Notes: generated by a model not told the origin, from the letters alone. Counted from the stretch's first letter, positions 9,185 through 59,711 are shown. The stretch is DNA of 64,000 nt from Candidatus Uhrbacteria bacterium (GCA_943358395.1 CALRGY010000001.1:8008-72007); one strand, 5' to 3'. Numbers and translations: made by a program.

Positions 9185-9309
9185 TAGGACTGCAACATTT
9201 TCGACCAGTTTCGGTGCGCATCGAGCAAATTTCGTGAGACGTACTTCACGGTACGTTGAACGAATTTGCGATGATGCAAGCCGAAAATGGGCAAAATGCT
9301 GCAGTCCTA
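9185..9309 (+). mobile_element. HP125 hairpin element, copy 1
   Basis: TAGGACTGCA...GAGACGTAC-ttcacg-GTACGTTGAA...TGCAGTCCTA, 125 bp. Confidence 0.85.
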
Positions 9310-9314
9310 CACGG

Positions 9315-9385
9315 TTGACCCTCATTGGTCGTCATGGGATACTGTTCGATGAACCCGCCGGATGCATTCGGCGGAATTGTTTTTA
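9315..9385 (+). promoter_or_regulatory. Putative greA promoter with terminator-like leader hairpin
   Basis: TTGACC-N17-GATACT with TG extension, then CCGCCG-N8-CGGCGG-AATTGTTTTT. Confidence 0.45.
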
Positions 9386-9421
9386 GAGAATGCTGACATT
9401 CTCAACGTATTACGATTTCTT

Positions 9422-9883
9422 ATGGACAATACACAAACATACATTTCTGCACTCGGATTACAAAAGATCAAAGACGAGCTTGTACACCGCATCAAAGTGT
9501 TGCGCCCAGAAATTGCTCAAAAGATTAGTGATGCAAAGGAAATGGGGGACTTGAGCGAAAACTTTGCATACCACGAGGCAAAGGAACAACAAGCACAAAA
9601 TGAAATGCGCATTGTTGATATTCAAGACATGGTTGTGAGTGCGGTGGTGGTAGAGGAAAAAATAGGCGGCGCCATTGGGCTTGGCTCTACATTCGTTGTG
9701 CGAGTGAACAATGCAGAAAAAACATACGAAATTGTGGGAGAGAACGAGGCAGACCCTATGGCAGGGAAAATTAGCAACATGTCGCCGCTCGGCAGTGCTT
9801 TCATGGGAAAGAAGATCGGTGACGCAGTGCATGCCGAAGTACCATCGGGAACTATCGAGTATAGTATTGTTGACGTGAAATAA
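9422..9883 (+). CDS. greA: Transcription elongation factor GreA
   Basis: GDLSENFAYHEAKE, ISNMSPLGSAF. Confidence 0.96.
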   Translation: MDNTQTYISALGLQKIKDELVHRIKVLRPEIAQKISDAKEMGDLSENFAYHEAKEQQAQNEMRIVDIQDMVVSAVVVEEKIGGAIGLGSTFVVRVNNAEKTYEIVGENEADPMAGKISNMSPLGSAFMGKKIGDAVHAEVPSGTIEYSIVDVK

Positions 9884-9893
9884 TGACTCACAT

Positions 9894-11387
9894 ATGACCA
9901 ATGAAGAAGTGGTACGGCGAGAACGATTAACGGCGATCGAGGCACGCGGCATTGATGCGTACCCTGCGGGAAGCACACGCACCGCAATGATCGCTGAAGT
10001 GCTTACAGCGTTCGATCAGCATCTTTCCGCAAGCGACACATGCACGATTGCCGGAAGAATTACGGCGATGCGCCATATTGGTGCCCTTTCTTTTGTGCGT
10101 ATTTTGGACGGCTCTGCACATATGCAGGCCGTTTTGCGTAAAGAAGACCTTGGTGAACAATATACATTTTGCGTGGATCATCTCGACGTCGGTGATATTG
10201 TTGAAGTGACAGGAATTGCGTACCTCACAAAAACTCAAGAGAAGTCGATTCTTGCTCAATCGGTTATTGTCGCCGCAAAAGCACTACAGCCGTTGCCGGA
10301 AAAGTGGCACGGACTTCAGGACGTAGAGATTCGCTATCGTCATCGAGAGCTTGACCTTATTACCAATCCAGAAGTGCGTGATCGTTTCGTGATGCGTTCA
10401 AAGTTCATTGCCGCAATGCGCCGGTTCCTTGACGATTCTGGCTACTTAGAAGTGGAAACGCCTATCCTTCAAGCTATTCCTGGCGGAGCAAGTGCGCGAC
10501 CGTTCATTACCCACCACAATGCACTCGATGCACAATTTTATTTACGGATTGCTACAGAACTCTATTTGAAACGTTTAGTCGTTGGTGGCATGGAAAAGGT
10601 GTACGAAATCGGGCGATGCTTCCGCAATGAAGGCATCGATTACTCCCACAATCCTGAATTCACGATGCTGGAGCTTTATTGCGCATACGCTAAAAAAGAA
10701 GAATTTATTACATTCAACGAAGAGATTCTCCGCAAGTCACTGCATGGAGCAACGGGATCGATGATTGTAACGATCGATGGAGTTGCTGTGGATTTTGCAC
10801 AGGCCTTTCCACGAATGACGTTCCGTGAATCTATTCTTCGTGCGTGCGACATCGACATCGACACATTGCACACCGAAGATGATGTGATGCGTGCTGCAAA
10901 AGATCGTGGGCTTTCCGTCGATTGTACTGGATGTCTTGGGTTCGGCGAATTCCTCGACGCGCTCTATAAAAAAACCGGTCGTGCTGCCATTACTACGCCA
11001 ACATGGATTTTCGACTATCCCGTTGAACTCAAGCCCCTTGCACGCCAGAATCCAGAAGATGCGTCAAAGAGCGCATGCGCACAGCTTGTTATTCTTGGTG
11101 CAGAAATCGTGAATCTCTATTATCACGAGCTGAATAATCCTATTGATCAGCGTGCGCGATTCGAGGTACAGGAATCGCTCCGTGAACAGGGAAGTGAAGA
11201 GGCGCAATTCATGGATGAAGACTTTTTGGCTGCGCTCGAGCACGGCATGCCACCAACCAGCGGAGTAGGGATCGGCATTGATCGCCTCATTGCGATTCTC
11301 ACTGGTGCGCCGAATTTGAAAGAGGTGATTGCGTTCCCTACGCTCAAGCCAAAAAACGAGCATGGCGGCGCTACCGATCAATCGTGA
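9894..11387 (+). CDS. lysS: Lysyl-tRNA synthetase class II
   Basis: PLPEKWHGL, FRNEGID..HNPEF, GMPPTSGVGIGIDRL. Confidence 0.97.
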   Translation: MTNEEVVRRERLTAIEARGIDAYPAGSTRTAMIAEVLTAFDQHLSASDTCTIAGRITAMRHIGALSFVRILDGSAHMQAVLRKEDLGEQYTFCVDHLDVGDIVEVTGIAYLTKTQEKSILAQSVIVAAKALQPLPEKWHGLQDVEIRYRHRELDLITNPEVRDRFVMRSKFIAAMRRFLDDSGYLEVETPILQAIPGGASARPFITHHNALDAQFYLRIATELYLKRLVVGGMEKVYEIGRCFRNEGIDYSHNPEFTMLELYCAYAKKEEFITFNEEILRKSLHGATGSMIVTIDGVAVDFAQAFPRMTFRESILRACDIDIDTLHTEDDVMRAAKDRGLSVDCTGCLGFGEFLDALYKKTGRAAITTPTWIFDYPVELKPLARQNPEDASKSACAQLVILGAEIVNLYYHELNNPIDQRARFEVQESLREQGSEEAQFMDEDFLAALEHGMPPTSGVGIGIDRLIAILTGAPNLKEVIAFPTLKPKNEHGGATDQS

Positions 11388-11395
11388 ATATAAAT

Positions 11396-11806
11396 ATGAC
11401 CACCGGTTTACTTTTTGGCACATTTGATGGTCTTCACGAAGGGCATATCGCTATGCTTACCGAGGCTCGAACACATGCACCGCGAATCATCATCGCCTTA
11501 CCAAAAGACACAAACGTTCTTGCCGCAAAAGGCCACCTTCCAATGTTTTCATGGAACGAACGTGCATCGGGATTACAGGAATCGGGACTCGTGCACGATA
11601 TTTACGCCGGCGATGACGTGCTCGGCGAGTATCATATCCTCGACCAGGTGAAGCCTGATGTCATCCTGCTCGGATACGATCAAACCGAGCTTTCTCTCAG
11701 CCTAAAGCAATACTTCGTTCTGCATCCAGAATCCACACTTCCGATGATTACTCTCGCCCCCCATCAGCCCGATCGCTATAAATCATCACTTTTAAACCCC
11801 GTATGA
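11396..11806 (+). CDS. Cytidylyltransferase-family protein (FAD synthase/TagD-like)
   Basis: FGTFDGLHEGH (HxGH), KPDVILLGYDQ. Confidence 0.85.
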   Translation: MTTGLLFGTFDGLHEGHIAMLTEARTHAPRIIIALPKDTNVLAAKGHLPMFSWNERASGLQESGLVHDIYAGDDVLGEYHILDQVKPDVILLGYDQTELSLSLKQYFVLHPESTLPMITLAPHQPDRYKSSLLNPV

Positions 11807-13065
11807 TCGACATCAAACTCCTCCGCGAACACCCTGAAGTCATCCGCAATGCCGCAAAGGCAAAAGGCGTCACCATCGACACCGATCGCATTCTCGAATT
11901 AGATCGCGGTGCGCGATTACTTCTTAGAGAAATCGAATCAACAAAGGCAAAGAAGAATGCGGCATCGGATGCTATCGCGAAGGCGAATCCAGAGGAACGA
12001 AAGGCGCTCATCGAGGCAATGCGTGCCGTGGACCAAGAATCTCAAGGGAAAGATGCGGAATACGCCGTAATTGATTCTGAGCTGCAAAGCCTGCTGCTTC
12101 GTATCCCTAATCCAGCACTTGCCGATGTCATCATCGGCGCATCGGATGAAGAAAACACTGTTCTTCGTACGGTTGGCGAGCCACCAAAGTTTGATTTCGA
12201 GCCTAAAGATCATCAAACACTCGGCGAGAACCTCGGTATTATCGACATGAAGCGTGCCGCAAAAGTGAGTGGCGCGCGGTTTGTCTATTACGTTGGCGAC
12301 GGGGCATTGCTTGAGCTGGCATTAGTCGATTTTGGCCTTCGCTTAGCCATGAAGCACGGTTTTATTCCCGTCACCGTTCCGCACCTCATTAACTCACGAT
12401 CGATGGCTGCCATGGGCTACCTTGAACATGGTGGACAGGATGAAATTTATTATCTTCAAAAAGACGATCTTTATCTCATCGGCACGTCAGAACAAGCTAT
12501 CGGTCCCATGCACATGGACGAAATTCTCGACGTTGCGAAGCTTCCACTTCGATATGTCGGTGTATCACCATGCTACCGCCGGGAATCGGGGAGCGCAGGA
12601 AAAGATACGAAGGGTGTGATTCGCGTTCACCAATTTACCAAGGTGGAAATGTTCGGCTTCTGTAAGGCGGAAGATTCTGTTGCAGAGCACGAAGCAATTC
12701 TGGCTATCGAAGAAGAGCTCCTCAAAGCCCTGGGTTTGCCCTATCACGTTCTCAATATTTGTACCGGTGACCTTGGTCTTCCTGCGGCAAAAAAGTGGGA
12801 CACCGAAGTATGGTTCCCGGCGCAGAATCGTTATCGAGAAGTCACGTCGACAAGCAACTGTACTGACTTCCAGGGTCGTCGCCTGAATACCCGATACCGA
12901 ACAGGGGAGGGAACTGAGGTGATTCACACCGTGAATGGCACCGCATTCTCTGGAAGACCAATCGCGGCGATTCTTGAAAACTTCCAAAATGCCGACGGCA
13001 GCGTAACCATTCCCGAAGTTCTTCGGCCATTCATGGGCGGAAAGGAACGCATTATTGCTGCGTAA
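11803..13065 (+). CDS. serS: Seryl-tRNA synthetase
   Basis: LYLIGTSE, CYRRESG, RVHQFTKVE, SNCTDFQGRRL. Confidence 0.97.
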   Translation: MIDIKLLREHPEVIRNAAKAKGVTIDTDRILELDRGARLLLREIESTKAKKNAASDAIAKANPEERKALIEAMRAVDQESQGKDAEYAVIDSELQSLLLRIPNPALADVIIGASDEENTVLRTVGEPPKFDFEPKDHQTLGENLGIIDMKRAAKVSGARFVYYVGDGALLELALVDFGLRLAMKHGFIPVTVPHLINSRSMAAMGYLEHGGQDEIYYLQKDDLYLIGTSEQAIGPMHMDEILDVAKLPLRYVGVSPCYRRESGSAGKDTKGVIRVHQFTKVEMFGFCKAEDSVAEHEAILAIEEELLKALGLPYHVLNICTGDLGLPAAKKWDTEVWFPAQNRYREVTSTSNCTDFQGRRLNTRYRTGEGTEVIHTVNGTAFSGRPIAAILENFQNADGSVTIPEVLRPFMGGKERIIAA

Positions 13066-13067
13066 AT

Positions 13068-14213
13068 ATGGCAGTACATGGGGCAAAAACATGGGTAGAA
13101 GTTTCGCGAAGCGCCATGGCGCAGAATATCGCGGCATTGCGAACATTCTTAAAACCGGAATCCGTGTTTTGCGCCGTTGTGAAGGCGAATGCCTATGGAT
13201 GCGGTGTACGCGAGGCATCAGGTATCGCCTCAGATTGCACCGTCGACACGTTTGCCGTTGATAGCATCGACGAGGCAGTCGTCCTTCGCGAAATATTGCC
13301 ACATGCAACGATCTTTATTTTGGGATATACCGTTCCCGAGAGACTATGCGATGTTGTGAGTATCGATGCCATTCAAACCGTATACGACACAGAAACCATT
13401 CTTGAAATCACGAAACACGCGCATCGGTTCAATAGGCCGGCGCGTGTTTCGTTGAAAGTTGAAACCGGTTTGCATCGGCAAGGCGCAACAGCGCGAGGGC
13501 TCACCGCAATGCTTGATGCGATTCGCGCCGCAGGGCAATCGGTTGTTGTTGAAGGAGTTGGCTCTCATTTTGCAAGTGCAGAGGAACCAACTGATCCTAT
13601 GAATACGTTTCAATTGGAGCATTTCGCTCACGCCATACACACGGTTCGCGCCGCAGGGCATACACCACGCTATGAACACATTGCCTGCTCTGCTGCAGGA
13701 ATTGCACACAGTGCCGCACAAGGAACGATGACCAGGTTTGGCATTGCGCTTTATGGGTTATGGTCGAGCAAGAATTTGAAACGTCATGTGATGCTTGGTC
13801 GTCAAAACATTGAATTGCATCCAGTGCTCAGCTGGAAAACACGTATCGCGCAAATCAAAGACATTCCAGCCGGTGCTGCAATTGGATACGGGGGAACGCA
13901 TGTAACCAATCGACCGATCCGCATCGCGGTGCTTCCGGTAGGGTATTATGATGGATACGATCGTGGGCTTTCAGGAAAAGGTGAAGTGCTCATTCGTGGG
14001 AAAAAGTGCGCAGTGCTTGGAAGGGTGTGTATGAATATGATTATGGTAGACGTTTCTGGAGTGCCTGCGCTTTCAGTGAATGACTGCGCAACACTCATCG
14101 GAAAAGACGGCATGCACACCGTTACGGCAGACGACATCGCCACCATACTCGGCACCATCAATTACGAGGTTGTTTCCCGCATCAATCCATTGTTGCCACG
14201 AGTGATATGCTAA
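13068..14213 (+). CDS. alr: Alanine racemase
   Basis: AVVKANAYG PLP-lysine motif, PVGYYDG, GRVCMN, GTINYE. Confidence 0.95.
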   Translation: MAVHGAKTWVEVSRSAMAQNIAALRTFLKPESVFCAVVKANAYGCGVREASGIASDCTVDTFAVDSIDEAVVLREILPHATIFILGYTVPERLCDVVSIDAIQTVYDTETILEITKHAHRFNRPARVSLKVETGLHRQGATARGLTAMLDAIRAAGQSVVVEGVGSHFASAEEPTDPMNTFQLEHFAHAIHTVRAAGHTPRYEHIACSAAGIAHSAAQGTMTRFGIALYGLWSSKNLKRHVMLGRQNIELHPVLSWKTRIAQIKDIPAGAAIGYGGTHVTNRPIRIAVLPVGYYDGYDRGLSGKGEVLIRGKKCAVLGRVCMNMIMVDVSGVPALSVNDCATLIGKDGMHTVTADDIATILGTINYEVVSRINPLLPRVIC

Positions 14214-15088
14214 AAAAACAACGTGATTTTCTTCGGCTATGGCATGCGAAAGAGCACGGAAACGGCATTCGAAAAAACCCCTTCTTTTTTAGAGCACCTC
14301 CTAAAAAGTGGCTTATCATCACCGGTATCGTTCTTGGTATAGTAGGGATCATCGGCGGCTGTATTGGCACAACCTATCTTTCATATTTTCGCATAACAGG
14401 AATAACCGTACAGGGCGCAACCATCACCCGCGCTGAAGATATTCAACAGAACGCATGGGAAACGATCACCACTCACTCGTACCCCTTTATTGCAAAAGAA
14501 AACGTCTTTCTCATCCGTGTCCAACGTATCGAACAGGAGCTCATGAAACGTTTTGCTCTTGAATCAGCGGTAGTGAGCCGTTCCGGGCGCACGTTGAATA
14601 TTGCTCTGGTTGAAAAAGTAACCACTCTTGCTCTTCGCACACAAGAAAAAACCGTGTTCCTTGATCTCTCCGGAACATATATTCGAGATGCTACTGCAGA
14701 AGAATCCCGAGCAATTGATGTTCGCATCGGCACAGCCGTTCCCACAGAAGGGGAAGTGATCGCACCATTACATGCCGAAATGCCAATCATTCTTGATACG
14801 CAAACAGATCCAGCCACATCGCTCCCCATACAAAGCGTCGAACACATTCTTGCGCTCACATCATCACTGCATAATCAGGGAATAACCGTAAAGACATATA
14901 CGCTAAACGGAGTGCATGCTCCTTTTGTTCGCCTTGATACCAATCAGCCGTACAGTCTCTTCTTTGACCTCAACCGCCCCGTCAATGAACAGATCAGCGC
15001 ACTGACCACCATCACTTCCTCACCATCCTTCATTCCTCCCGCAGAATACATCGATCTCCGCTTTGGAGCGTATGTGTATATGAAATAG
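14207..15088 (+). CDS. ftsQ: FtsQ/DivIB-like cell division protein
   Basis: Single TM, POTRA-like ITVQG, C-terminal EYIDLRFG. Confidence 0.75.
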   Translation: MLKKQRDFLRLWHAKEHGNGIRKNPFFFRAPPKKWLIITGIVLGIVGIIGGCIGTTYLSYFRITGITVQGATITRAEDIQQNAWETITTHSYPFIAKENVFLIRVQRIEQELMKRFALESAVVSRSGRTLNIALVEKVTTLALRTQEKTVFLDLSGTYIRDATAEESRAIDVRIGTAVPTEGEVIAPLHAEMPIILDTQTDPATSLPIQSVEHILALTSSLHNQGITVKTYTLNGVHAPFVRLDTNQPYSLFFDLNRPVNEQISALTTITSSPSFIPPAEYIDLRFGAYVYMK

Positions 15089-15210
15089 GACTTCCTCATT
15101 TTGTCTATTTTCGACTCAGATCATCGGAAAATCGTTCAACGTACCATAAAGTACGTCTCACGAATTTTCCTCGATCTTCATCGAAACTAGCCTAAAATGA
15201 GAAAGTCCTA
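15086..15210 (-). mobile_element. HP125 copy 2 (reverse); first TAG is the ftsQ stop
   Basis: TAGGACTTCC...TTCAACGTAC-cataaa-GTACGTCTC...AAAGTCCTA, 125 bp. Confidence 0.85.
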
Positions 15211-15220
15211 CAAAATAAGT

Positions 15221-16150: not shown

Positions 16151-16160
16151 TCATCTATAT

Positions 16161-16628: not shown

Positions 16629-16703
16629 AACTGGTCACAAACGAGAAACGTTCTAATAACAAATCCAATAACGCATCCTCGAGCAGAATCGATTGTGAGC
16701 GGA

Positions 16704-21118: not shown

Positions 21119-21243
21119 TCGGACTTCCCCATTTTGCCCATTTTCGGCTTGCATCATCGGAAACTTCTTCAACGTACCAAGAAGTACGTCTCAGAAGATT
21201 TCCTCGACGCGCACCGAAACTGGTCGAAAATGAGAAAGTCCTA
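21119..21243 (-). mobile_element. HP125 copy 3 (reverse), in clpB 5' UTR
   Basis: TCGGACTTCC...CAACGTAC-caagaa-GTACGTCTC...AAAGTCCTA, 125 bp. Confidence 0.85.
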
Positions 21244-30239: not shown

Positions 30240-30364
30240 GAGGACTTTCTCATTTTAGGCTAGTTTCGATGAAGATCGAGGAAAATTCGTGAGACGTACT
30301 TCATGGTACGTTGAACGATTTTCCGATGATCTGAGTCGAAAATAGACAAAATGAGGAAGGACTA
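30240..30364 (+). mobile_element. HP125 copy 4
   Basis: GAGGACTTTCTC...GAGACGTAC-ttcatg-GTACGTTGAA...GAAGGACTA, 125 bp. Confidence 0.85.
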
Positions 30365-32936: not shown

Positions 32937-33078
32937 TGTTGGACTTGGCGACTCGGGTGCATGTTTTTCCGCTGTGCTCAAGGACGCCACGCTGCGACGT
33001 CTCGCTATCGCTCGACTGCAGCTGGGCATCCGGTGAGCTCGCTGCAAAACATGCACCCTCGTCCCCTAACGTCCAACA
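32937..33078. repeat. 142-bp long imperfect hairpin
   Basis: TGTTGGAC/GTCCAACA, GGGTGCATGTTTT/AAAACATGCACCC, GCTCA/TGAGC, GCTGC/GCAGC. Confidence 0.75.
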
Positions 33079-39449: not shown

Positions 39450-39574
39450 TAGGACTTTCTCATTTTAGGCTAGTTTCGATGAAGATCGAGGAAAATTCGT
39501 GAGACGTACTTCATGGTACGTTGAACGATTTTCTGATGATCTGAGTCGAAAATAGACAAAATGAGAACGTCCTA
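39450..39574 (+). mobile_element. HP125 copy 5
   Basis: TAGGACTTTCTC...GAGAACGTCCTA, 125 bp; nearly identical to copy 4. Confidence 0.85.
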
Positions 39575-40279
39575 TTATTGACGAATCAACCCCGGATGAT
39601 CCGGCATCAATTCAGCGATCATGCCTGACGCTTGGCGATACCATTCAGCAACGGCATCGACGTGGGACATGCCAGAAGATTCAAGCGACCGAAGAAGGGC
39701 AAATTTTCTCTCGAAAAGCTCGTGATGTTTTGCGAGGCGATCGGGGGATTCAAGAGCCCAAAGTGATCCTTGAATCTCAACCTGCTCTTTGCGATCGATA
39801 ATCGCTTCATCCAGATAGCGATTCACTGAAACATCAAAATCAATCGGCTCAACAGTAATTGAACCCGAACCATCAAAAACAGCGGCAGAAACACGTTGAA
39901 TCCGTTGATCCCGCGTTGCTTCACAAAAGATTGTAACCGATTCTCCGTCGTCTTCTCTATCGATGATCTCCTTAGCGAACATAAGATTCTCTAGCGTTGA
40001 AAGCGATCGATCTTCAAGCGTAATCAACCAATCCTTACATCGATTCCCCATCACGGAGCGATCGACGAGCTTCTGCATATACTCACCGATGACTGCTGCC
40101 TCGGTTCCCTCATACGGCGGTGCGCAATTCGTTGGGCCGCCACAAGGGATGATCAACGCCTTTTCACCTTTAGCAGAGGCATAGATGCGATTAAACGCGA
40201 CGTGAAGGTACGTAAGATAGTTCTGATCCCGCTCAATGAATTCTGGAATGCCGTAGCCGGGAATGATGAAAACCTTCAT
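39575..40279 (-). CDS. YdcF/DUF218-like protein
   Basis: IIPCGG, TEAAVI, LEDRSLSTLENL. Confidence 0.65.
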   Translation of the reverse strand: MKVFIIPGYGIPEFIERDQNYLTYLHVAFNRIYASAKGEKALIIPCGGPTNCAPPYEGTEAAVIGEYMQKLVDRSVMGNRCKDWLITLEDRSLSTLENLMFAKEIIDREDDGESVTIFCEATRDQRIQRVSAAVFDGSGSITVEPIDFDVSVNRYLDEAIIDRKEQVEIQGSLWALESPDRLAKHHELFERKFALLRSLESSGMSHVDAVAEWYRQASGMIAELMPDHPGLIRQ

Positions 40280-40761
40280 ACTTTTTTGATTTCGATCGCA
40301 CGCTGACGAATATGTTTTCCAATTATTCCCCAATGAATATACTCATCCCACTCTTCGAGATCGATCAGTGTAATCTTCGTAATAGAGCCAGCGGGATCGC
40401 TTACAAAATCACCTAAAGGCTCAACGATGCAACACGAACGCAATTGGATTATCGATGAACCATCTTCGGAAAAGATTTCTTGATAACCGATTGGAACGCG
40501 CATAACGATCGTCATATTCGATTCCTCTCGAACTTCACGAACCAATGCATCATTTATCAATTCCCCAGACTCTACGGTTCCGCCAGGAAGGCTCCACGCC
40601 TTTCTTCGTTCATCCCAACATATCACGATTTTTTCTCCTACAAAACAAACGCCATAATGCTGACGGATCTTTTCGTACGGCAATCCATCGAATGTATCGC
40701 AGTCGTGATACACGACGTGATATGGGACGTCACTCCACACGACATCTTCCTCCATCTTCAT
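40276..40761 (-). CDS. NUDIX hydrolase
   Basis: PGGTVESGELINDALVREVREES Nudix box. Confidence 0.9.
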   Translation of the reverse strand: MKMEEDVVWSDVPYHVVYHDCDTFDGLPYEKIRQHYGVCFVGEKIVICWDERRKAWSLPGGTVESGELINDALVREVREESNMTIVMRVPIGYQEIFSEDGSSIIQLRSCCIVEPLGDFVSDPAGSITKITLIDLEEWDEYIHWGIIGKHIRQRAIEIKKV

Positions 40762-41633: not shown

Positions 41634-41758
41634 TAGGACTTTCTCATTTTAGACCAGTTTCGATGAAGATCGAGGAAATCGTCTGAGACGTACTTCATGG
41701 TACGTTGAAGACGTTTCCGATGATCTGAGTCGAAAATGGGCAAAATGAGGAAGTCCTA
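41634..41758 (+). mobile_element. HP125 copy 6
   Basis: TAGGACTTTCTC...GAGGAAGTCCTA, 125 bp. Confidence 0.85.
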
Positions 41759-45384: not shown

Positions 45385-45509
45385 TTAAACGGTTCCAGTT
45401 TAGGCGAGTTTCGATGCGCATCGAGCAAAGCTTCCGAGACGTACTTCACGGTACGTTGAGGAAGTTTGCGATGATGCAAGTCGAAAATCAACAAACTGGG
45501 GCCGTTTAA
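45385..45509 (+). mobile_element. HP125 copy 7 (divergent termini); contains infA stop
   Basis: TTAAACGGTTCCAGTTT...GAGACGTAC-ttcacg-GTACGTTGAG...AAACTGGGGCCGTTTAA, 125 bp. Confidence 0.82.
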
Positions 45510-47744: not shown

Positions 47745-48583
47745 TGATGGGATGGAAGGGAATCGGAGGAAAAGTGTGTGAAAGTGAAGGGAGTCTTTGG
47801 AGGGGGTTGGGAAGAAGTGAGTCTTGGAATGGGCTGTGAACGGGGAGTCGGAGGGGGTGGGGCTTGCGTTTTCAAAAGGGGCATCCTACTAATGCAACTG
47901 AGTTGCATGTAGGGGATGGGATAGCGATTGGGATTCGATGAGGATCGATTGTGTTTATCGAGAATGATCGAGATTCTGATGGAGACGGTCGATGTGATGT
48001 TTCATAGGTTTTTTTGCGTACCATCGATCGTGTTGATCGATTTTCACCATCGGAATCTGACCATATGCTTTGAAAAAAGAGTGCTCTCGCTAACGCGAAT
48101 GATTCGCGATAAGGAAACGGTCATCGATATTCGGTGCCCCGATGAGGTACGGCGACAAGGCGTAGAATCGACGATTCATGATCGTGAGCATTACAGTCGT
48201 CTTTCGCTGATTTCACTGTTACGCCGTGTTCAGATGGAAAGTTTTTCAACCCTCAAAAGCGAGGGCGCCTTCACAAAACGCGATACCCAAGCTGCCGAAT
48301 ATACCCGTCGATAGCACCTATCGCATCACGTTCGCTTCCTAATCTCAAACCCATTCCAAAGATTCCCATCACTTCACGATCCCTCACCCTCTCCAACTCC
48401 CCCTTCCCACTTCGCTCTTCGAGCTTCGAGGGACAAGTGGCAGGAGGAGGGTTCTCATCCAACTCTCACAACCCACCCCAAAGACTCACATCACTTCCCA
48501 TTTCACGTTCCCGTCACCACATTCCCAACACCCTCCAAAGACTCACCTCACTTCCCATTCCCAACCCCTTCAAAAGATCACTC
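47745..48583. repeat. Large foldback element FB2
   Basis: Purine-rich left arm (GAGTCTTTGGAGGGGGTTGGGAA) mirrored by right arm (TTCCCAACACCCTCCAAAGACTC); core homologous to reverse complement of FB3 core. Confidence 0.75.
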
Positions 48584-51976: not shown

Positions 51977-51997
51977 AGTAAAGAAATGAAAATCGTC

Positions 51998-52122
51998 TAG
52001 AAACAGATTATTTTCGACCAGTTTCGGTGCGCATCGAGGAAATGTCGTGAGACGTACTTCATGGTACGTTGAACGACTTTCCGATGATGCAAGCCGAAAA
52101 TGGGCAAAATAATCCGTTTCTA
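51998..52122 (+). mobile_element. HP125 copy 8; terminal CTA is the pduL stop
   Basis: TAGAAACAGATTATTTT...AAAATAATCCGTTTCTA, 125 bp. Confidence 0.85.
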
Positions 52123-52701
52123 GTGTTGAATATCCCTGATTCGAACATGCGCACCGGAATGCAGCCACATCTCACGAGCAAGATCCTGATGAATATGCAA
52201 ACGAGCACGATACGTTGGATGCACCCGAACAATCACCCCCTCGATGACGCACGTGGCATCCCCAACCACGTCCACCCGCACCACCGCACCATGTGCAAGC
52301 CGCAACGCCGTTGCTTCACTATCGGAAAGATGCAAATGCGGTTTTGGAACAATCACCGATGCCTGAGCATCAACAGTGCCATGCGCAGTACGCAAACGGC
52401 AGGGCTTCGCTGCAGCCAAGTCGCCAGACTTTGCCAGCGGCGCATCAATCCCCAGGAGTCGCGCTTCCGTAGGCGTAAGCTCTACCTGCGTTGCTTTCCG
52501 GTGCGGCCCCAGCACCCGCAACGTCACACACTCTCCATTCGCCCCAATCACATCCACCATTTCCGCATACGCAAACTGCCCAGCCTGCGAAAGCTCGTAC
52601 CGCACCGTCCCCGCATTCCCCTCACCAAAAAGCACCTCATGATGCGCCGCCGAAACATGCACATGCGACGGAATAACTTCTACAGGAATAGGACGAGACA
52701 T
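52120..52701 (-). CDS. pduL: PduL-family phosphotransacylase
   Basis: SHVHVS, LSQAGQFA, RVLGPHRKATQVEL, SGDL, HLHLS. Confidence 0.85.
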   Translation of the reverse strand: MSRPIPVEVIPSHVHVSAAHHEVLFGEGNAGTVRYELSQAGQFAYAEMVDVIGANGECVTLRVLGPHRKATQVELTPTEARLLGIDAPLAKSGDLAAAKPCRLRTAHGTVDAQASVIVPKPHLHLSDSEATALRLAHGAVVRVDVVGDATCVIEGVIVRVHPTYRARLHIHQDLAREMWLHSGAHVRIRDIQH

Positions 52702-52727
52702 ACCGGAAAAGTATATCACGGCATGGA

Positions 52728-53441: not shown

Positions 53442-53460
53442 AGCAACGTTGTGCATACTG

Positions 53461-53534
53461 TGCGTCTGGCGTGATTCGAACACACGACCTCTTCCTTCGG
53501 AGGGAAGCGCTCTATCCAGCTGAGCTACAAACGC
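53461..53534 (-). tRNA. tRNA-Arg(CCG), CCA not encoded
   Basis: GCGTTTG-TA-GCTC-AGCTGGATA-GAGC-G-CTTCC-CTCCGAA-GGAAG-AGGTC-GTGTG-TTCGAAT-CACGC-CAGACGC-A cloverleaf. Confidence 0.95.
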
Positions 53535-53556
53535 ACGGTCGGCACAACGTCACAGG

Positions 53557-53681
53557 TAGGACTTCCTCATTTTGTCTATTTTCGACTCAGATCATCGGAA
53601 AATTGTTCAACGTACCAGGTAGTACGTCTCACGAATTTTCCTCGATCTTCATCGAAACTAGCCTAAAATGAGAAAGTCCTA
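53557..53681 (-). mobile_element. HP125 copy 9 (reverse); terminal CTA is the TrmH-gene stop
   Basis: TAGGACTTCC...AAAGTCCTA, 125 bp; nearly identical to copy 2. Confidence 0.85.
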
Positions 53682-54116
53682 TTCTTTTCTACTACAGAGA
53701 TACATCGCCACACCGCTTGCGACGGAAACATTCAACGACCGCTTCTTATCCATCGGAATCTCCACAATCCCATCAAGCATAGCACGGGTTGCTGCATCGA
53801 TTCCCTCAACTTCGCTCCCCAGAACCAATGCAAGCTTTTTCACCCCACATTCTGTAATTGGCACTGCGCCCTCTCCGGTTTCCAAGCCCCACACAGCATA
53901 CCCCTCTGCCCGCACCTCGTCGATCACCTCCCGAATCTCCTCCGCCTCCCACGGCACCAAATCCTCTGCTCCTAAAGAAACCTTCGCAATCTCCTTTCGT
54001 GGCGGCACCCCCGTAATTCCCGTCAAATACACCTTTTCCACCCCAAACGCCGCCGCATTCCGCAAAATAGACCCCACATTGTGCAAACTTCGAATATTGT
54101 GCGCGATGATGATCAT
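53679..54116 (-). CDS. SpoU/TrmH RNA methyltransferase
   Basis: HNVGSILR, LVLGSEVEGI, SLNVSVA. Confidence 0.92.
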   Translation of the reverse strand: MIIIAHNIRSLHNVGSILRNAAAFGVEKVYLTGITGVPPRKEIAKVSLGAEDLVPWEAEEIREVIDEVRAEGYAVWGLETGEGAVPITECGVKKLALVLGSEVEGIDAATRAMLDGIVEIPMDKKRSLNVSVASGVAMYLCSRKE

Positions 54117-54119
54117 AAT

Positions 54120-54368
54120 CTACGTAATATGCTCATCAAATTCCTCCTGCGTGCATACACCCCCCTTCACCAACCAATCGCGAAATCCCTTCACGATATA
54201 TTTATTCACCTCTCGGTGACTCAAAGGCAATGGAAACGCCGATCCGGTCGATGCTTGTACTTTGATGTTATGCCGACCTCCCGGGTCAAGAGTGATTCCA
54301 GGCTTCCTCGAAAGCCACTGAAGAAACTGGGAAAGCTTTTTCGATGAAATATTTGCGTATTCCCCCAT
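54120..54368 (-). CDS. HicA-like protein
   Basis: 82 aa, GGRH loop, P.SHREV; adjacent to HicB-like gene. Confidence 0.5.
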   Translation of the reverse strand: MGEYANISSKKLSQFLQWLSRKPGITLDPGGRHNIKVQASTGSAFPLPLSHREVNKYIVKGFRDWLVKGGVCTQEEFDEHIT

Positions 54369-54370
54369 AT

Positions 54371-54784
54371 TTACGCTGCCGTCACCATTTCAGACGGGAA
54401 TGACAATAATCCAAAATTCGACTGCAATACGTCGGAATTCTCCAATTTTTCTCGTTCGATTCGGGAGGGAGCGAAAAGCCCATTCGCAAGAATCACCGTG
54501 GAATATTCTATTGGAACGTTCAGGACAACCAACAATCCTTCGTTGATCATCCGAATAAAATCCTCTGCATTTTTGCCTTGAGTCGGAAATGTTAACGCAC
54601 CAGCCTCGACGTTTCCAACAATATATCCGTCATCTCGCCACCAAGAAACCTGAATATTCGAAGGAAGCTTTTGATAATACGCCACCAAAACCTCTGGAAT
54701 AATTTCCGGAGGCACTACCTTCGATCGAACATGTTTGAACCACGTTTGTATGCGTAAAACGGTTAAAAACATAAAATTCAGCAA
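54371..54784 (-). CDS. HicB-like protein (partial RNase H fold)
   Basis: DDGYIV...PTQGKNAEDFIRMINEG resembles the HicB TQG.T.EE motif; start uncertain. Confidence 0.5.
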   Translation of the reverse strand: MLNFMFLTVLRIQTWFKHVRSKVVPPEIIPEVLVAYYQKLPSNIQVSWWRDDGYIVGNVEAGALTFPTQGKNAEDFIRMINEGLLVVLNVPIEYSTVILANGLFAPSRIEREKLENSDVLQSNFGLLSFPSEMVTAA

Positions 54785-54842
54785 TATATCTTATGTGAAC
54801 CATATCAAAAAAACCGCTTTTCGGCTATCCTCACTGCCATCT

Positions 54843-56021: not shown

Positions 56022-56924
56022 CCTCTCCCCCATTTATGGGGGAGTCGGAGGGGGAGAGGGAAAGTGAAGTGAGTCTTTGGAGGGGTTAAGTGGTGACAGG
56101 AATCGGAGCAGCCAGATCCTGAGGCTCCGCCGAAGGACCCCGAACGAACCTACTCGTAAACAATTCGGGGCGTGAGGGATGGGAGTCTTGGAAGGGGTTG
56201 TGAGTCCGGACGTGAACCTGGACGTGAACTCTCCTCCATTTATGGGGGAGTTAGGAGGGGGCTGAATCGGAGGGGGTCTCATTTTGAAATGACACCCCCC
56301 CATTTTCGACCTTTTTCAACAGGACACTCTGCCGCGACGTGATCGTGAAATCGGCGAAAAGTGTCTTAAATGGGGACGCACGGAAATCATCAACGGCATA
56401 CGTCATCACTTACCCTGGATCGTTATCATCGGTATCGACCAACGGTTTCTTCTTGCGAATGATTCGCATTAGCAAGAAGCCTCTTTGGAAAACCACATAG
56501 TCAAATTCCGACCTCAAAAACTGATCACCTCAATCGGCTATACACAAAAGAATCAATAAAACATCACGTCGACTGTCTTCATCGGAATCCTCCTCACATA
56601 CGATGATAATAGTCCCTTCTCATCGAATCCCGATCATCATCCCGTCCTCTACATGCAACTCAGTTGCATTAGCAGGACCCCCCTTTTTAAATCGCAACCC
56701 CCTCTGGTTCAGATCCCTCCGATTCACAACCCTTTCAAAGACTCACCTCCCGAATCGTTTACCCGTCAGCTCATTTGAGGTCCTTCCCACTGCGCTAAAG
56801 CTTCGTGGGGACAGGTCGGCGTAGCCTCAGGATCTGGGACGCTCCGATTCCTGTTCTCCCTCCAACCCCATTCAAAGATCACCCTCCTCTCACCGCCTAC
56901 CCCCAACCCCTTCAAAGACTCCCC
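56022..56924. repeat. Large foldback element FB3
   Basis: ACAGGAATCGGAGC..CCAGATCCTGAGGCT.CGCCGA (56096-56133) pairs with 56816-56854; GTAAAC.ATTCGGG..GAGTCTT.GAA.GGGTTGTGA pairs with 56722-56762. Confidence 0.8.
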
Positions 56925-57260
56925 TCACTTTCGATTCTTCCGAGCCAGCGTCACGTGAAGCGTTGCGGCATTAAGCATGGTATTGAAACGTTCGTAATAA
57001 GGGGCATGATCTTTAGGATCAATGCCTTCTATTGTTTTCTGAAACGCTGCCCGCATAAAGTCATTTGCTCGACGAAAATCATGACCAGTGCGCTGGGCAC
57101 TGGAAACAACCTGCTCAAATCGACGAAAAAATATTTCCTCCACAAGAAAATCCTCCGCAGCCTGCATCATCGTCGGCGACTCTTTTGGAGTCAAAGCCTC
57201 AGAAAAAAATTCCTGCGAAGACGGAACACGCGAATCCTCCAATCGCCAAGGCTTTCCCAT
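56925..57260 (-). CDS. Hypothetical protein
   Basis: 111-aa ORF 2 nt downstream of the J-domain gene. Confidence 0.55.
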   Translation of the reverse strand: MGKPWRLEDSRVPSSQEFFSEALTPKESPTMMQAAEDFLVEEIFFRRFEQVVSSAQRTGHDFRRANDFMRAAFQKTIEGIDPKDHAPYYERFNTMLNAATLHVTLARKNRK

Positions 57261-57262
57261 AT

Positions 57263-58060
57263 TTAATCGTCTTCACCAAACTCCCTCACAATCGCCCGCG
57301 CCAACATTGCTTTAAATTGCTCACGCAATGGTTCTCGAGATTTCACACTCATACCTTGAATGACCTGTTCAAACTTCCTCTGCACCTCAACGACTACTCC
57401 TATTCTGGCACCATAATTATTGCCCATGGCACGCATAAATATCTGAGCAAAAGCCTCTGGCTCAAGAAACGCTTCGACGTATTCCCGACAACACGTTTGC
57501 GCCAAATCTTCAAAACGGATCGAAAATGCTACCCGATCCCGGTACGGCACCCCCTCCAAATACGTCTCAAATTCGCCCCGTAACTTGTTCCTGGCATCAA
57601 GAGTGATGCCCTTACAGTCTTTCATCGCATCAGCAAACCGGGCAGAAAAGAAGGTGACATTCAAAAAGTTGCGCATTTGCTGTTCTTTTGGCGAAAGCGC
57701 ATCGATCCCCATCCGCTCGCGGGGTGGCGGAGGTTTCACCGCTTTCCTTGTACGAGAAACCGCCGGAGTCGTATTCTGAAGAGCATCATAAACACGTCGT
57801 TTCTTTTCATCACCGAGAACCTCATAAGCATCGGCAAACGCTCGAAATCGAGCCTCCGCCTCAGGATCATTCGGATGTCGATCGGGATGCGTTTCCATGA
57901 CCGCCTTTCTCCATGCACTTTTGATCGCTCGATCATCTGCGTCTTTTAATACGCCAAGCACAGCATAGTGATCAATCGGTGTATGCAATTCTACCGATGG
58001 CGCATTTCTTCCTCCTTCAAAACCTCTTCCCGATCGAGTCATATATTGCGACGTATTCAT
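57263..58060 (-). CDS. J-domain (DnaJ-like) protein
   Basis: DHYAVLGV, HPD motif, AYEVLGDEKKRRVYD; unknown C-terminal domain. Confidence 0.85.
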   Translation of the reverse strand: MNTSQYMTRSGRGFEGGRNAPSVELHTPIDHYAVLGVLKDADDRAIKSAWRKAVMETHPDRHPNDPEAEARFRAFADAYEVLGDEKKRRVYDALQNTTPAVSRTRKAVKPPPPRERMGIDALSPKEQQMRNFLNVTFFSARFADAMKDCKGITLDARNKLRGEFETYLEGVPYRDRVAFSIRFEDLAQTCCREYVEAFLEPEAFAQIFMRAMGNNYGARIGVVVEVQRKFEQVIQGMSVKSREPLREQFKAMLARAIVREFGEDD

Positions 58061-58135
58061 TGACCAAAACGCACTTTTCCGCTAACATAAGCCCATTATC
58101 TTTTGTTTCATCGTTCATTGCGATGAAGATCACCT

Positions 58136-58990
58136 ATGCTCAAGTCTGGAATGGTTGCGATTGTGGGACGTTCCAATGTGGGAAAATCCACGTTAATCAA
58201 TACGCTCGTTGGTACAAAGGTTGCGATTACCACACCAAAGCCACAAACAACTCGTAGACCTATACAGGGTATCATTACGCGCCAAGAGGGGCAGGTGGTG
58301 TTTGTGGATACTCCTGGCATCATGCAAAAGGCGCGCGACACATTGACGAATAAGCTCAATGCGTACGCCAAGGATTCGCTTCGTGACGTGAATGCTGTCA
58401 TGTACGTCGTCGATCCTACACGTCCCATCGGCGATGAAGAAAAGCAAGCGTTCCGACTCGTCGAAAAAATCACTACCCCAAAATTGCTCGTCATCAACAA
58501 AATCGACGACAAGGCGTCAAAAAACTTCATCGACTACTACCGCGATCTCGCAACGAAATTCGATGCATATGTGGAGGTATCGGCAATGACATCGAAAAAT
58601 ACCGATCTCATCGAGAAGTGGATTTGGGAACAGATGCCAGAAGGCGAATTTTTGTACCCTGAATTCCAACTGACCAGTATGGGCAACGAGGAATGGCTTG
58701 CGGAATTGATCCGTGAAAAACTCTTTCTCCGATTACGAGAAGAGGTTCCCTACTCAACCCACGTTGAAGTGAATAGCATCGATATTCAAGACAACGGCAC
58801 CGTGTTCGTGGACGCAACCATTTATACGCATTCCGAACGGTACAAGCCGATGATCATCGGTGCGGGCGGGCGGGGCATTAAAGAGATTGGTCAGTCGACG
58901 CGTCGGGAGCTGGAGACGGTGACGGGGAAGAAGTACTTTCTTCAGTTGCAGGTTGCGGTTGACTCTCGGTGGGTGGAGCGGATGGAGTAG
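58136..58990 (+). CDS. era: GTPase Era
   Basis: GRSNVGKST, PQTTR, DTPG, NKID, EEVPYS, KH-domain IIGAGG. Confidence 0.96.
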   Translation: MLKSGMVAIVGRSNVGKSTLINTLVGTKVAITTPKPQTTRRPIQGIITRQEGQVVFVDTPGIMQKARDTLTNKLNAYAKDSLRDVNAVMYVVDPTRPIGDEEKQAFRLVEKITTPKLLVINKIDDKASKNFIDYYRDLATKFDAYVEVSAMTSKNTDLIEKWIWEQMPEGEFLYPEFQLTSMGNEEWLAELIREKLFLRLREEVPYSTHVEVNSIDIQDNGTVFVDATIYTHSERYKPMIIGAGGRGIKEIGQSTRRELETVTGKKYFLQLQVAVDSRWVERME

Positions 58991-59189
58991 GTTCAGCAGA
59001 ATCCGACTGAATAATATCGTAAATCGCCTGAACCTTTTCCATAGTCTTCTGGGCGCTTTCAATGGCTGCGGATATTTCCGCAGCTTTTGTTTTTACCGAA
59101 TCCGTCACCGCATGAATCGAAGCAACAGCATCATCCGTGCAGCCAGCACCGAGGAGAGTGAATAGAGTAATGATGAAAATGTATTTCAT
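58878..59189 (-). CDS. Small lipoprotein
   Basis: MKYIFIITLFTLLGAGC lipobox; acidic P/S tail overlaps era antisense. Confidence 0.6.
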   Translation of the reverse strand: MKYIFIITLFTLLGAGCTDDAVASIHAVTDSVKTKAAEISAAIESAQKTMEKVQAIYDIIQSDSAEPTPSAPPTESQPQPATEESTSSPSPSPAPDASTDQSL

Positions 59190-59199
59190 AGTATTGCAT

Positions 59200-59281
59200 C
59201 CCAGACCCTGAGCGCAGCGAAGGGTCTCGCATGGGACTACGGTATGCTCATTTGGGATCCTTCCTATCGTCAGGATCTGGG
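59200..59281. repeat. REP-like inverted doublet
   Basis: CCCAGACCCTGAGCGCAGCGAAGGGTCTC ... GGGATCCTTCCTATCGTCAGGATCTGGG; related to FB3 arm motif. Confidence 0.65.
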
Positions 59282-59283
59282 CT

Positions 59284-59574
59284 TCATGTTCTCGATTCTC
59301 CAATCCCCGCCACTTTCTCCCCCTTTGCCCAGGCCGTCACCGTTACCTCATCGCTGGAGCCACAGATAAAAGCTTTTGTTTCCGTGTTATAAAAAAATGG
59401 CACACCACCGCACAAACCATCATCAATAGCTTCAAGACGCTTGGCATTCTCCGCATTATTCCAAACCTCCAGCTTTTCAATGGTGATTCCGAGGTCGGAT
59501 TCGATCTTCTCGATCATCGGCTTCATTTCAACGCAGTGCGGACACGTGTCACCGTAGAATTCAAGGAGAGACAT
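59284..59574 (-). CDS. Thioredoxin-like protein
   Basis: FYGDTCPHC, CGGVPFFYN. Confidence 0.85.
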   Translation of the reverse strand: MSLLEFYGDTCPHCVEMKPMIEKIESDLGITIEKLEVWNNAENAKRLEAIDDGLCGGVPFFYNTETKAFICGSSDEVTVTAWAKGEKVAGIGESRT

Positions 59575-59586
59575 AATAATTACATT

Positions 59587-59711
59587 AAAGGTTTTTTCAT
59601 TTTGTCTCTTTTCGGCTTGCTGCGTCGCAAATTCGTTCAACGTACCGTTAAGTACGTCTCACGAACTTTGCTCCTTGCGCACCGAAAATAGCCTAAAATG
59701 AGAAAACCTCA
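59587..59711 (-). mobile_element. HP125 copy 10 (reverse, most diverged)
   Basis: AGGTTTTTTCATTTT...TTCAACGTAC-cgttaa-GTACGTCTC...AAAATGAGAAAACCT. Confidence 0.8.

What the first reader, a model, noticed from the sequence alone, without database searches (positions are those of the whole stretch)
9185..59711. HP125: ten dispersed 125-bp hairpins conserved in structure rather than terminal sequence
Seen: copies at 9185, 15086, 21119, 30240, 39450, 41634, 45385, 51998, 53557, 59587 align without indels by eye. The apex GAGACGTAC-N6-GTACGTTGA is invariant while stems covary: outer GGACTGCA/TGCAGTCC, GGACTTTC/GGAAGTCC, AAACGGTTCC/GGGGCCGTTT, GAAACAGATT/AATCCGTTTC; inner GCAAATTTCG/CGAATTTGC, GGAAATCGTC/GACGTTTCC, GCAAAGCTTCC/GGAAGTTTGC; GCATC/GATGC vs AGATC/GATCT. 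The loop TGAG/TGAA forms tandem G.A pairs on one strand only. Six copies are forward and four reverse, independent of host-gene direction; pairs 4/5 and 2/9 are nearly identical, implying recent spread. Known: ERICs and MITEs are similar in size but keep terminal sequence; structure-based recognition is typical of attC sites and HUH/RAYT substrates. Inference: an apparently undescribed non-autonomous mobile family recognised as folded ssDNA or RNA, with its mobiliser encoded elsewhere.
Basis: partly seen in the sequence, partly recalled or inferred. Interest (0 to 1): 0.85.

Follow-up and report, generated by a model that had tools for sequence, protein, structure and literature searches.

The report
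Hairpin MITE riding IS701 transposon ends
The ten hairpins are copies of a 125-base gene-less jumping element, present about 120 times in this tiny bacterial genome, whose ends and 5-base target duplication match IS701-type insertion sequences that likely move it, while its folded interior is kept across lineages that use other transposon ends and always faces neighbouring tRNA genes with the same end, for reasons not yet known.

Summary
Observation confirmed; interpretation half right. The ten 125-bp copies are real, among about 120 in this 0.9-Mb Ca. Uhrbacteria-like genome. Stems covary strongly (123 compensatory double changes versus 8-11 in slid controls). Terminal sequence does matter, however. 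Copies with near-consensus ends carry an AT-rich 5-bp target duplication (11 of 49, null 0.35). Their 19-bp ends match the inverted repeats of TAGGACTT-ended IS701-family elements, which duplicate 5-6 bp. Sites are empty in relatives. So it is a MITE, likely moved in trans by a DDE transposase; the cognate gene was not found in this assembly. Unusual features: (1) the same core carries IS5-type ends and a 4-bp duplication in other families; (2) it shares apex and loop motifs with ERIC and with hairpins on unrelated viral contigs (weak, post hoc); (3) 26 of 26 tRNA contacts use the same element end; (4) mini-hairpins nest at its G.A loops; (5) old copies rewrite their ends yet stay paired. The scan noted this family, and the IS5/ERIC link, before on other DNA.

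The parts
9185..9309 (+). Copy 1. Its 5' end directly follows the stop of the penicillin-binding protein gene (7268-9184); greA lies downstream. Partly diverged outer stem, no target duplication.
15086..15210 (-). Copy 2, young group. Its 3'-terminal CTA supplies the TAG stop of ORF 14207-15088 on the other strand.
21119..21243 (-). Copy 3, in the divergent gap upstream of the Clp ATPase gene.
30240..30364 (+). Copy 4, young group, between co-directional ORFs.
39450..39574 (+). Copy 5, young group. 4 of 5 bases of a target duplication remain (TTATG/TTATT); its 3' end abuts the stop of a DUF218 gene (39575-40333, -).
41634..41758 (+). Copy 6. Its 3' end abuts the terminator-like hairpin behind rpsI. 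This site is empty in the relatives that cover it; L001 has a separate insertion about 45 bp away, at the rpsI stop.
45385..45509 (+). Copy 7, rewritten outer stem. Its 3' end overlaps the stop of infA (named from its translation, no family search). Site filled in L002 and L004, empty in L001, L003, L005, L008, L010, L011, L036.
51998..52122 (+). Copy 8, rewritten outer stem. Its terminal CTA is the TAG stop of the PTAC gene (52120-52719, -). Site empty in 4 of 4 relatives that cover it.
53557..53681 (-). Copy 9, young group. Its 5' TAG is the stop of the SpoU methylase gene (53679-54116, -); its 3' end lies 22 bp upstream of tRNA-Arg(CCG).
59587..59711 (-). Copy 10, diverged ends, 4 bp behind the stop of an HhH-GPD gene.
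53461..53534 (-). tRNA-Arg(CCG) downstream of copy 9; the only Rfam match in the window.
15192..15210 (-). Example of the 19-bp terminal inverted repeat (5' end of copy 2): 14 of 19 identical to the best IS701-type end.
15136..15159 (-). Example of the conserved apex (copy 2): tandem G.A loop, 7-bp stem, 6-nt loop.

Best explanation
HP125 is a 125-bp non-coding element with IS701-type terminal inverted repeats and an AT-rich 5-bp target duplication, that is, a MITE, likely cut and pasted in trans by a DDE transposase of the TAGGACTT-ended IS701 subgroup, which was not found in this assembly. Shown: the ends, the duplication, empty sites, copy-number bursts, a covarying hairpin core, and the same core with IS5-type ends and a 4-bp duplication in other families. 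Inferred: (1) The core is a passenger that has acquired different transposon ends over time. (2) Both ends start with TAG, so insertions at the tail of a gene can supply its stop codon and survive in a compact genome. (3) Old copies lose the transposon signature but stay under constraint to remain paired, and they persist mainly beside tRNA genes. (4) The fixed polarity most likely reflects oriented target choice, steered by the strand-asymmetric core, followed by retention; this step is the weakest (about even odds).
For: Duplication: 11 of 49 near-consensus copies have a perfect 5-bp direct repeat (shuffled mean 0.35, maximum 3). No other length from 1 to 11 gives perfect repeats above the shuffles (lag 9 has raised mean identity, z 3.6, but no perfect repeats); 1 of 53 diverged copies has one. 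Perfect duplications go with TAG...CTA ends: 11 of 45 versus 1 of 56, p=0.001. Ends: three IS701-family elements (NF049921 above cut-off) begin TAG(G/A)ACTTAC and duplicate 5, 5 and 6 bp: one on Nostoc plasmid AP018224.1, one each in G601 and G640 of the same class. 64 of 101 copies match such an end at 13 or more of 19 positions, against 0.026% of random genome positions; the mean is 12.6, versus 7.0 against this genome's own IS701 ends or the IS5 ends. G034 copies match the Nostoc end at 15 of 15 and the G601 end at 18 of 19. Mobility: filled and empty orthologous sites interleave on the tree, with inserts of 128-130 bp; 0 to at least 86 model matches per genome across 41 relatives. End swap: cores scoring 85-90 bits in G025 and G033 end in, or close to, the 14-bp repeat of an IS5-family element found in G031 and G025, with a 4-bp duplication in 2 of 2 such copies in G033. 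Stops: 12 gene stops are the terminal 3 nt of a copy (crude gene calls). Old copies: outer ends differ 33% from their nearest neighbour versus 9% for the core, yet 11.9 of 14 pairs hold.
Against: No cognate transposase was found in this genome or its genus. Its only DDE_Tnp_1/IS701 match has different ends and, by eye from three pairs of contig ends, a 7-bp duplication; 0 of 13 genus relatives match NF049921 and 0 of 24 family relatives match PF01609. G601 and G640 were not searched for hairpin copies, so co-occurrence with the TAGGAC-ended transposase is not shown. G000 ends differ from the IS701 ends at about 5 of 19 positions. None of the ten window copies has a perfect duplication. In G025, 0 of 3 IS5-ended copies keep one, and G031 has the IS5 element but no hairpin match. 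No same-strain empty site was seen. A plain MITE model does not explain the conserved core, the polarity, or the compensation in old ends.
Confidence: 0.8

Rival explanations
1. The element moves as a folded single strand recognised by structure (HUH/RAYT, integron-like, or a small GIY-YIG ssDNA nuclease); the IS-like ends are incidental.
For: Strand-asymmetric fold in 68 of 68 copies; fixed apex and tandem G.A loops; polar contact with tRNA ends; four small GIY-YIG genes in the genome, one next to a 30-bp hairpin made only of HP125 ends and to a copy of a nested mini-hairpin. SsnA cleaves ssDNA hairpins strand-specifically (PMC11893778, Results part 1 and Discussion read).
Against: A fixed 5-bp duplication is a staggered-cut signature; HUH and tyrosine-recombinase insertion leave none (established knowledge, recalled). 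No Y1 transposase; one tyrosine recombinase match, as in hairpin-negative genomes; GIY-YIG genes also occur in two genomes without copies; no NTS/SRM motif in the element; no strand bias. Two separate IS families match the ends and the duplication length of two element subgroups.
Confidence: 0.08
2. The core is a host-useful structured RNA (pre-tRNA leader or trailer, or 3'-UTR stability element); transposition only seeds it, and selection on transcripts produces the conservation and the polarity.
For: The most diverged copies sit at tRNA ends: 5 of 5 found by an apex-only search, and 23 of 48 tRNA/tmRNA genes are abutted. 0 of 13 tRNA-abutting copies keep 4 or more of 5 duplication bases. Ends are compensated in place at the infA site, where the 5' arm tracks three different stop codons. 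Orientation-dependent effects on mRNA are reported for ERIC (PMC2229807, passages).
Against: The strand that would be transcribed differs between tRNA 5' contacts (sense) and 3' contacts (antisense). Sense and antisense are balanced overall (34:39). 7 of 41 relatives have no match. G-T over A-C bias is not significant. This rival is compatible with the best explanation for movement and competes only on why the core is kept.
Confidence: 0.3
3. The element retrotransposes through a hairpin RNA released from pre-tRNA (target-primed reverse transcription), which would explain why the 3' end always faces the gene.
For: Polarity of the 3' end; many copies end 0-7 bp before a tRNA 5' end.
Against: No reverse transcriptase in this assembly; RT presence does not track copy number (3 of 5 genomes tested, one of them hairpin-negative). 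Fixed element length, fixed duplication length, and IS-matching ends.
Confidence: 0.04
4. The copies are an assembly artefact or a static motif.
For: The genome is a draft metagenome assembly and contigs break inside copies.
Against: Contigs of two runs read into the copies from unique flanks without differences; all 68 full-length copies are distinct; occupancy differs between relatives.
Confidence: 0.01

Closest known systems
Bacterial MITEs with IS-derived ends (e.g. RUP with IS630-Spn1; Correia/NEMIS; QMITE2)
   Same: Short, non-coding, multicopy and intergenic, with inverted repeats matching an autonomous IS and a target duplication (definition from PMC2229807, PMC10969869, PMC11602168, passages read).
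   Different: Ends are of IS701 type. The interior is not IS-derived filler but a covarying hairpin that also occurs with IS5-type ends. Strict polarity at tRNA genes.
IS701-family insertion sequences (NCBIfam NF049921), TAGGACTT-ended subgroup
   Same: 19-bp ends, the G/A variant at position 4, and an AT-rich 5(-6)-bp duplication.
   Different: No transposase gene; about 5 of 19 terminal positions differ in this genome; no cognate element found here.
ERIC / IRU / RU-1 of enterobacteria
   Same: About 125-127 bp, a single long hairpin, a TAC/GTA apex stem above a tandem G.A loop, and a (C/G/A)(A/T)AGG...AC(G/A) internal-loop module 32-35 nt from the apex (12 of 19 ERICs, 15 of 53 diverged copies, background 27 of 25564, motif chosen after seeing both).
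   Different: ERIC is TA-flanked (PMC3184786, PMC2229807, passages), has a 6-bp apex stem and a 4-nt loop. The model scores ERICs at 29 bits at most, against antisense decoys up to 24, and finds 0 matches in E. coli K-12. The youngest copies here lack the loop module in its ERIC form.
Rickettsia RPE-1 and Bacillus cereus bcr1
   Same: Long palindromic repeats of similar size. A recalled RPE-1-like apex pattern pulled 6 of 6 similar hairpins from viral contigs. bcr mobility is tied to a 5-base TTTAT motif (PMC6542083, passage).
   Different: No real RPE-1 or bcr1 sequence was compared. HP125 is almost entirely intergenic (3 of 116 overlap a called ORF by more than 40 bp), and its duplication has no fixed sequence.
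REPINs with RAYT; attC sites; Ssn with NTS/SRM
   Same: Strand-asymmetric hairpins of similar size or shape.
   Different: No Y1 transposase, no cassette array, no CGTC-tagged motif; a fixed target duplication is present.

Membership tests
MITE | Short, non-coding, multicopy | tested here: met
   125 bp; 116 merged HMM hits plus 5 diverged copies; 3 of 116 overlap an ORF by more than 40 bp
MITE | Terminal inverted repeats | tested here: met
   Consensus ends; 49 of 102 within 3 mismatches of 28 nt
MITE | Target-site duplication | tested here: met
   5 bp, 11 of 49 perfect versus 0.35 expected
MITE | Empty orthologous sites in relatives | tested here: met
   infA, rpsI and PTAC sites; none within the same strain
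MITE | Mobilisation in trans demonstrated | not testable with these tools
   Needs a transposition assay
IS701-dependent element | Ends match IS701-family inverted repeats | tested here: met
   64 of 101 at 13 or more of 19; background 0.026%; G034 copies 15 of 15 and 18 of 19
IS701-dependent element | Same duplication length as those IS | tested here: met
   IS copies duplicate 5, 5 and 6 bp
IS701-dependent element | Cognate transposase in the same genome | tested here: not met
   The only match has other ends and is 28-32% identical to the TAGGAC-ended subgroup; assembly 97.6% complete
ERIC | ERIC consensus sequence | tested here: not met
   ERICs score 29 bits at most; 0 matches in E. coli K-12
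ERIC | TA-flanked termini | tested here: not met
   No signal at lag 2; signal at lag 5
ERIC | Long hairpin with TAC/GTA apex, tandem G.A loop and internal-loop module | tested here: inconclusive
   Shared features seen, but the motif was defined post hoc and homology is not established
REPIN/RAYT and IS200/IS605 (HUH) | Y1 transposase present; no target duplication; lagging-strand bias | tested here: not met
Integron attC | Co-oriented cassette array near an integron integrase | tested here: not met
   Dispersed on both strands (63:53); one PF00589 match, also present in hairpin-negative genomes
Ssn NTS/SRM | CGTC-tagged 20-50 nt hairpin next to an ssn gene | tested here: not met
   Motif from PMC11893778 is absent from the element as printed; GIY-YIG loci hold no full copy
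RPE-1 | RPE-1 sequence and in-frame coding insertion (TIGR01045) | not tested
   The translated scan failed on stop codons and was not repeated; the RPE paper was not held
Rfam families | Score above gathering threshold | tested here: not met
   Window: tRNA only; 12 related loci: only tRNA and rRNA above threshold

The most novel reading that the evidence does not exclude
HP125 is one branch of a cross-phylum superfamily of about 125-nt hairpin cores that includes ERIC. The core is a functional folded module (fixed apex, spaced tandem G.A loops, a shared internal loop) that binds a common host or transposase-associated factor, swaps terminal repeats to hitchhike on whichever IS family is available (IS701 here, IS5 in sister families), steers itself in one orientation to tRNA gene ends, and is itself parasitised by 24-33-bp mini-hairpins.
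Probability: 0.3. Interest if true: 0.85.

Novelty: new variant of a known kind. Interest (0 to 1): 0.55.

Why it matters
As a MITE it is a known kind of thing, but it names a testable transposase for a hairpin repeat that fills about 1.6% of a streamlined 0.9-Mb genome and touches 23 of its 48 tRNA/tmRNA genes. One folded core on the ends of two different IS families means that ends and interior evolve separately, which ordinary MITEs (deleted IS derivatives) do not predict. If the ERIC link holds, how ERIC-like repeats move and why their fold is kept becomes testable; a 2007 review noted no experimental support for their transposition (PMC2229807, passage). The 26-to-0 polarity at tRNA ends is a sharp signal that no model here fully explains.

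Tried and rejected
Rfam: no family. Y1 transposase: none. Reverse transcriptase: none in G000. Tyrosine recombinase and GIY-YIG genes: present with and without copies. IS1182/IS5 in this family: 0 of 24. This genome's own IS701: wrong ends and duplication length. Autonomous element with HP125 ends: 16 of 16 fetched terminal-motif sites in relatives were hairpins or their derivatives; 17 viral matches had no partner end; the one solo end in G034 lies in a kinase gene. Recurrent mobiliser gene among neighbours: none seen. Plasmid and phage BLAST: no match. Replication-strand bias: none. Pairing beyond the element boundary, as template switching might give: none. A -10 box upstream was seen for only 3 of 11 tRNA-leader copies, so the idea of a discrete small RNA is unsupported. 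One-sided adjacent deletion as the cause of polarity: duplications of 4 or more bases survive in 7 of 52 abutting versus 12 of 47 distant copies, inconclusive. Expression: no RNA holder listed. Same-strain empty sites: none in contigs of four runs; the one skip at infA carries a relative's sequence. Covariation was counted on extant pairs only, so it is not an R-scape test. Literature searches found no description of this family; ISfinder and three key papers (PMC524882, PMC186582, PMC1291288) were not available.
Full report
1. Observation. The ten copies are at the stated coordinates, 125 bp each, six forward and four reverse, all with the exact apex. They fold far better than shuffles (z -7.4 to -10.8, four copies on both strands) and match no Rfam family. 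The window lies in a 912-kb, 97.6% complete genome. Its closest named relatives by RpoA (96-98%) include records titled Candidatus Uhrbacteria, Patescibacteria. A profile from the ten copies gives 116 merged hits genome-wide (63 +, 53 -), and an apex-only search adds five diverged ones. Later counts use subsets that must be kept apart: 102 anchor-defined hits (101 after dropping one 237-bp mis-anchored row) and 68 ungapped 125-mers. Gene calls outside the window come from a crude codon-score caller (889 ORFs).

2. Structure. A single rod of about 50 pairs with three tandem G.A-type loops and a 7-bp apex stem. In 34 disjoint nearest pairs of extant copies there are 123 compensatory double changes, against 8-11 with slid partners and at most 29 with random re-pairing; this holds for outer (65) and inner (58) stems. 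On a 27-row cross-family alignment the covariation score is 0.40, versus 0.18 shuffled and 0.08-0.24 slid. These are not R-scape tests. The forward strand is more stable in 68 of 68 copies as RNA and as DNA; nothing here separates the two.

3. It is a MITE. Defining the element as TAG...CTA, 11 of 49 copies with near-consensus ends have a perfect AT-rich 5-bp direct repeat (null 0.35, maximum 3). Only that length gives perfect repeats above the shuffles, and 1 of 53 diverged copies has one. The infA site (copy 7) is filled in the window, L002 and L004, and empty in L001, L003, L005, L036 and the outgroups L008, L010, L011; filled and empty states interleave on the tree. L001 has its own insertion at the rpsI stop with a 4-of-5 duplication. 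A covariance model finds matches in 34 of 41 genomes of the order, from 0 to at least 86 (capped), and in 7 of 60 other genomes of the class, with bursts of 9-13. The exact consensus end occurs 48 times here and 0-8 times in 13 genus relatives, so the latest burst is specific to this lineage.

4. The likely mobiliser. Copies in G034 end in a variant two bases from the consensus here. An IS701-family element on Nostoc plasmid AP018224.1 has the same first 15 bases, the same G/A variant at position 4, and a perfect 5-bp duplication. Of nine NF049921 loci in 301 genomes of the class, two (G601, G640) show such ends at both sides, with 5- and 6-bp duplications; several others are cut by contig ends or have other ends. 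64 of 101 copies match one of these six IS ends at 13 or more of 19 positions (background 0.026%), and copies with a perfect duplication match better than the rest (13.5 vs 12.0, p=0.001). Against this: the cognate gene was not found here or in the genus. This genome's own IS701 has other ends, a 7-bp duplication read by eye from contig ends, and 28-32% identity to the TAGGAC-ended subgroup. Mobilisation in trans is therefore inferred, by a transposase that was lost, unassembled or transient.

5. The core changes its ends. An IS5-family element (NF033581 above cut-off) in G031 and G025 has 14-bp ends and, in G031, a 4-bp duplication. A pattern for that end gave 21 matches in five genomes (2 for the reversed control): eight are ends of five hairpins, three lie beside IS5-type transposase sequence, and ten are one repeated end in G031, mostly near contig edges, whose gene I did not see. 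The four of these hairpins tested score 85-90 bits with the core model. Both G033 copies keep a 4-bp duplication; none of three in G025 does; G031 has no hairpin match. G476, in another order, has ends like those here around a different core. Ends and core therefore assort separately.

6. Polarity. The element's 3' end abuts a gene end or hairpin in 60 of 101 copies, its 5' end in 22 (47 vs 9 discordant). At tRNA/tmRNA genes the score is 26 to 0, covering 23 of 48 genes: sense before the tRNA 5' end, antisense after the 3' end. The same rule holds in other families (9 of 32 copies examined abut a tRNA, all by the 3' end) and in loci of other orders and classes. There is no replication-strand bias (48:54). 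One DNA-level rule covers both tRNA ends, whereas selection on RNA would need opposite strands at the two ends, so I favour oriented target choice plus retention, at about even odds. Among the 12 copies with a perfect duplication, 5 abut a gene with the 3' end and 3 with the 5' end, too few to decide.

7. Old copies and parasites. Copies with rewritten ends differ 33% from their nearest neighbour in the outer 28 nt but 9% in the core, and keep 11.9 of 14 pairs. Constraint on pairing, with the core possibly homogenised among copies, is the simplest reading; it is not shown. Twenty-two mini-hairpins of 24-33 bp are nested on the 3' strand of the G.A loops, 19 with an exact 3-bp duplication. One related mini-hairpin lies outside, beside a tRNA-linked GIY-YIG gene, a lead for their separate mobiliser.

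8. Wider kin. A model built only from 53 Patescibacteria copies scores two viral-contig hairpins at 51 bits and six others at 28-38. These loci were selected by apex patterns, one of them recalled from RPE-1, so part of the score is built in. ERICs fetched by a recalled apex motif reach 27-29 bits in 2 of the 19 loci given, against antisense decoys up to 24, and E. coli K-12 gives no match. An internal-loop module at a similar distance from the apex occurs in 12 of 19 ERICs and 15 of 53 diverged copies (background 27 of 25564), with the same two variants (post hoc). This is suggestive, not proof. HP125 is not an ERIC: ERIC is TA-flanked (PMC3184786 and PMC2229807, passages).

9. Literature seen. 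Passages of PMC3184786, PMC3733652, PMC6542083, PMC2700814, PMC10969869, PMC2229807 and PMC11602168; abstract, first quarter of Results and Discussion of PMC11893778; search listings only for the rest. Ten searches gave no description of this family. Subscription papers, ISfinder and supplements were not seen; the alignments of multicopy repeats in the supplements of PMC2700814 and the MITE catalogue of PMC11602168 could hold relatives. General statements on HUH, integron and DDE signatures are recalled. Earlier notes of this scan describe the family in other Uhrbacteria (e1-1022435, e1-822579, e1-1579344) and IS5 ends with an ERIC-like interior (e1-2074181, e1-3771069; read after my own tests). 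They are not independent support, and the summaries I saw do not mention IS701 ends.

10. Verdict. A real, recently expanded MITE with IS701-type ends (confidence 0.8): a new variant of a known kind. Its interest lies in the end-swapping conserved core, the strict tRNA polarity and the possible ERIC link. Interest 0.55; novel case probability 0.3, interest 0.85 if true.

Noticed in passing
G000:C13:28949-30073 (L334) and ends of 8 other contigs: A multicopy IS701-family element with different ends and an apparent 7-bp duplication; it breaks the assembly, and no NF049921 match was found in 13 genus relatives.
   Followed up: partly
G000:C11:35600-36530 (L276); C5:16800-17300 (L277); C2:19090-19730 (L207): Small GIY-YIG genes beside tRNA-Trp and tRNA-Glu or between inverted hairpins. 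The C11 locus has a duplicated tRNA fragment holding the same kind of mini-hairpin that nests in HP125, and a 30-bp hairpin made only of HP125 ends.
   Followed up: partly
G000, 22 inserts within copies on C2, C5, C6, C7, C9, C12, C14, C17, C18, C24, C27: Nested mini-hairpins of 24-33 bp, all on the 3' strand of a G.A-type loop; 19 of 22 have an exact 3-bp duplication (two opposite-strand double counts removed). A groundwater contig shows another mini-hairpin at the same place.
   Followed up: partly
G000:C18:12981-13182: A copy whose core is replaced by a CGTC-type hairpin that itself holds a further mini-hairpin.
   Followed up: no
G000:C12:9172, C27:5527, C2:56682, C10:31518, C3 between tRNA-Leu and tRNA-Val, C6:3758/13202/14317: Internally deleted derivatives (68, 68, 68, 58 and about 39 bp; one 68-mer keeps a perfect duplication) and three solo 3' ends.
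   Followed up: partly
window about 32950-33065; 47790-48570; 56070-56855: Other repeat families: a roughly 110-bp hairpin at the start of the called deformylase ORF, with a second copy at C1:5887, and two GC-rich cassettes of about 750 bp bounded by inverted repeats.
   Followed up: no
G338 (L282-L298): A roughly 160-175-bp AT-rich version with the same apex, 24 model matches, in another class of the phylum.
   Followed up: partly
L258, L259/G439; L226-L231: Hairpins with the same apex on unrelated viral or proviral contigs. The L258 type scores 51 bits and carries the ERIC-like loop; G439 holds several copies, two with an inserted mini-hairpin.
   Followed up: partly
L029:7954-8077; L019:8174-8299: Distant relatives have separate insertions in the infA-rpmJ gap, L029 at the infA stop itself with another core type: a recurrent hot spot.
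   Followed up: partly
listing: Many records with RpoA 65-96% identical to this genome are titled Gammaproteobacteria or Kapaibacterium, though they group with Uhrbacteria records; the titles look unreliable.
   Followed up: no
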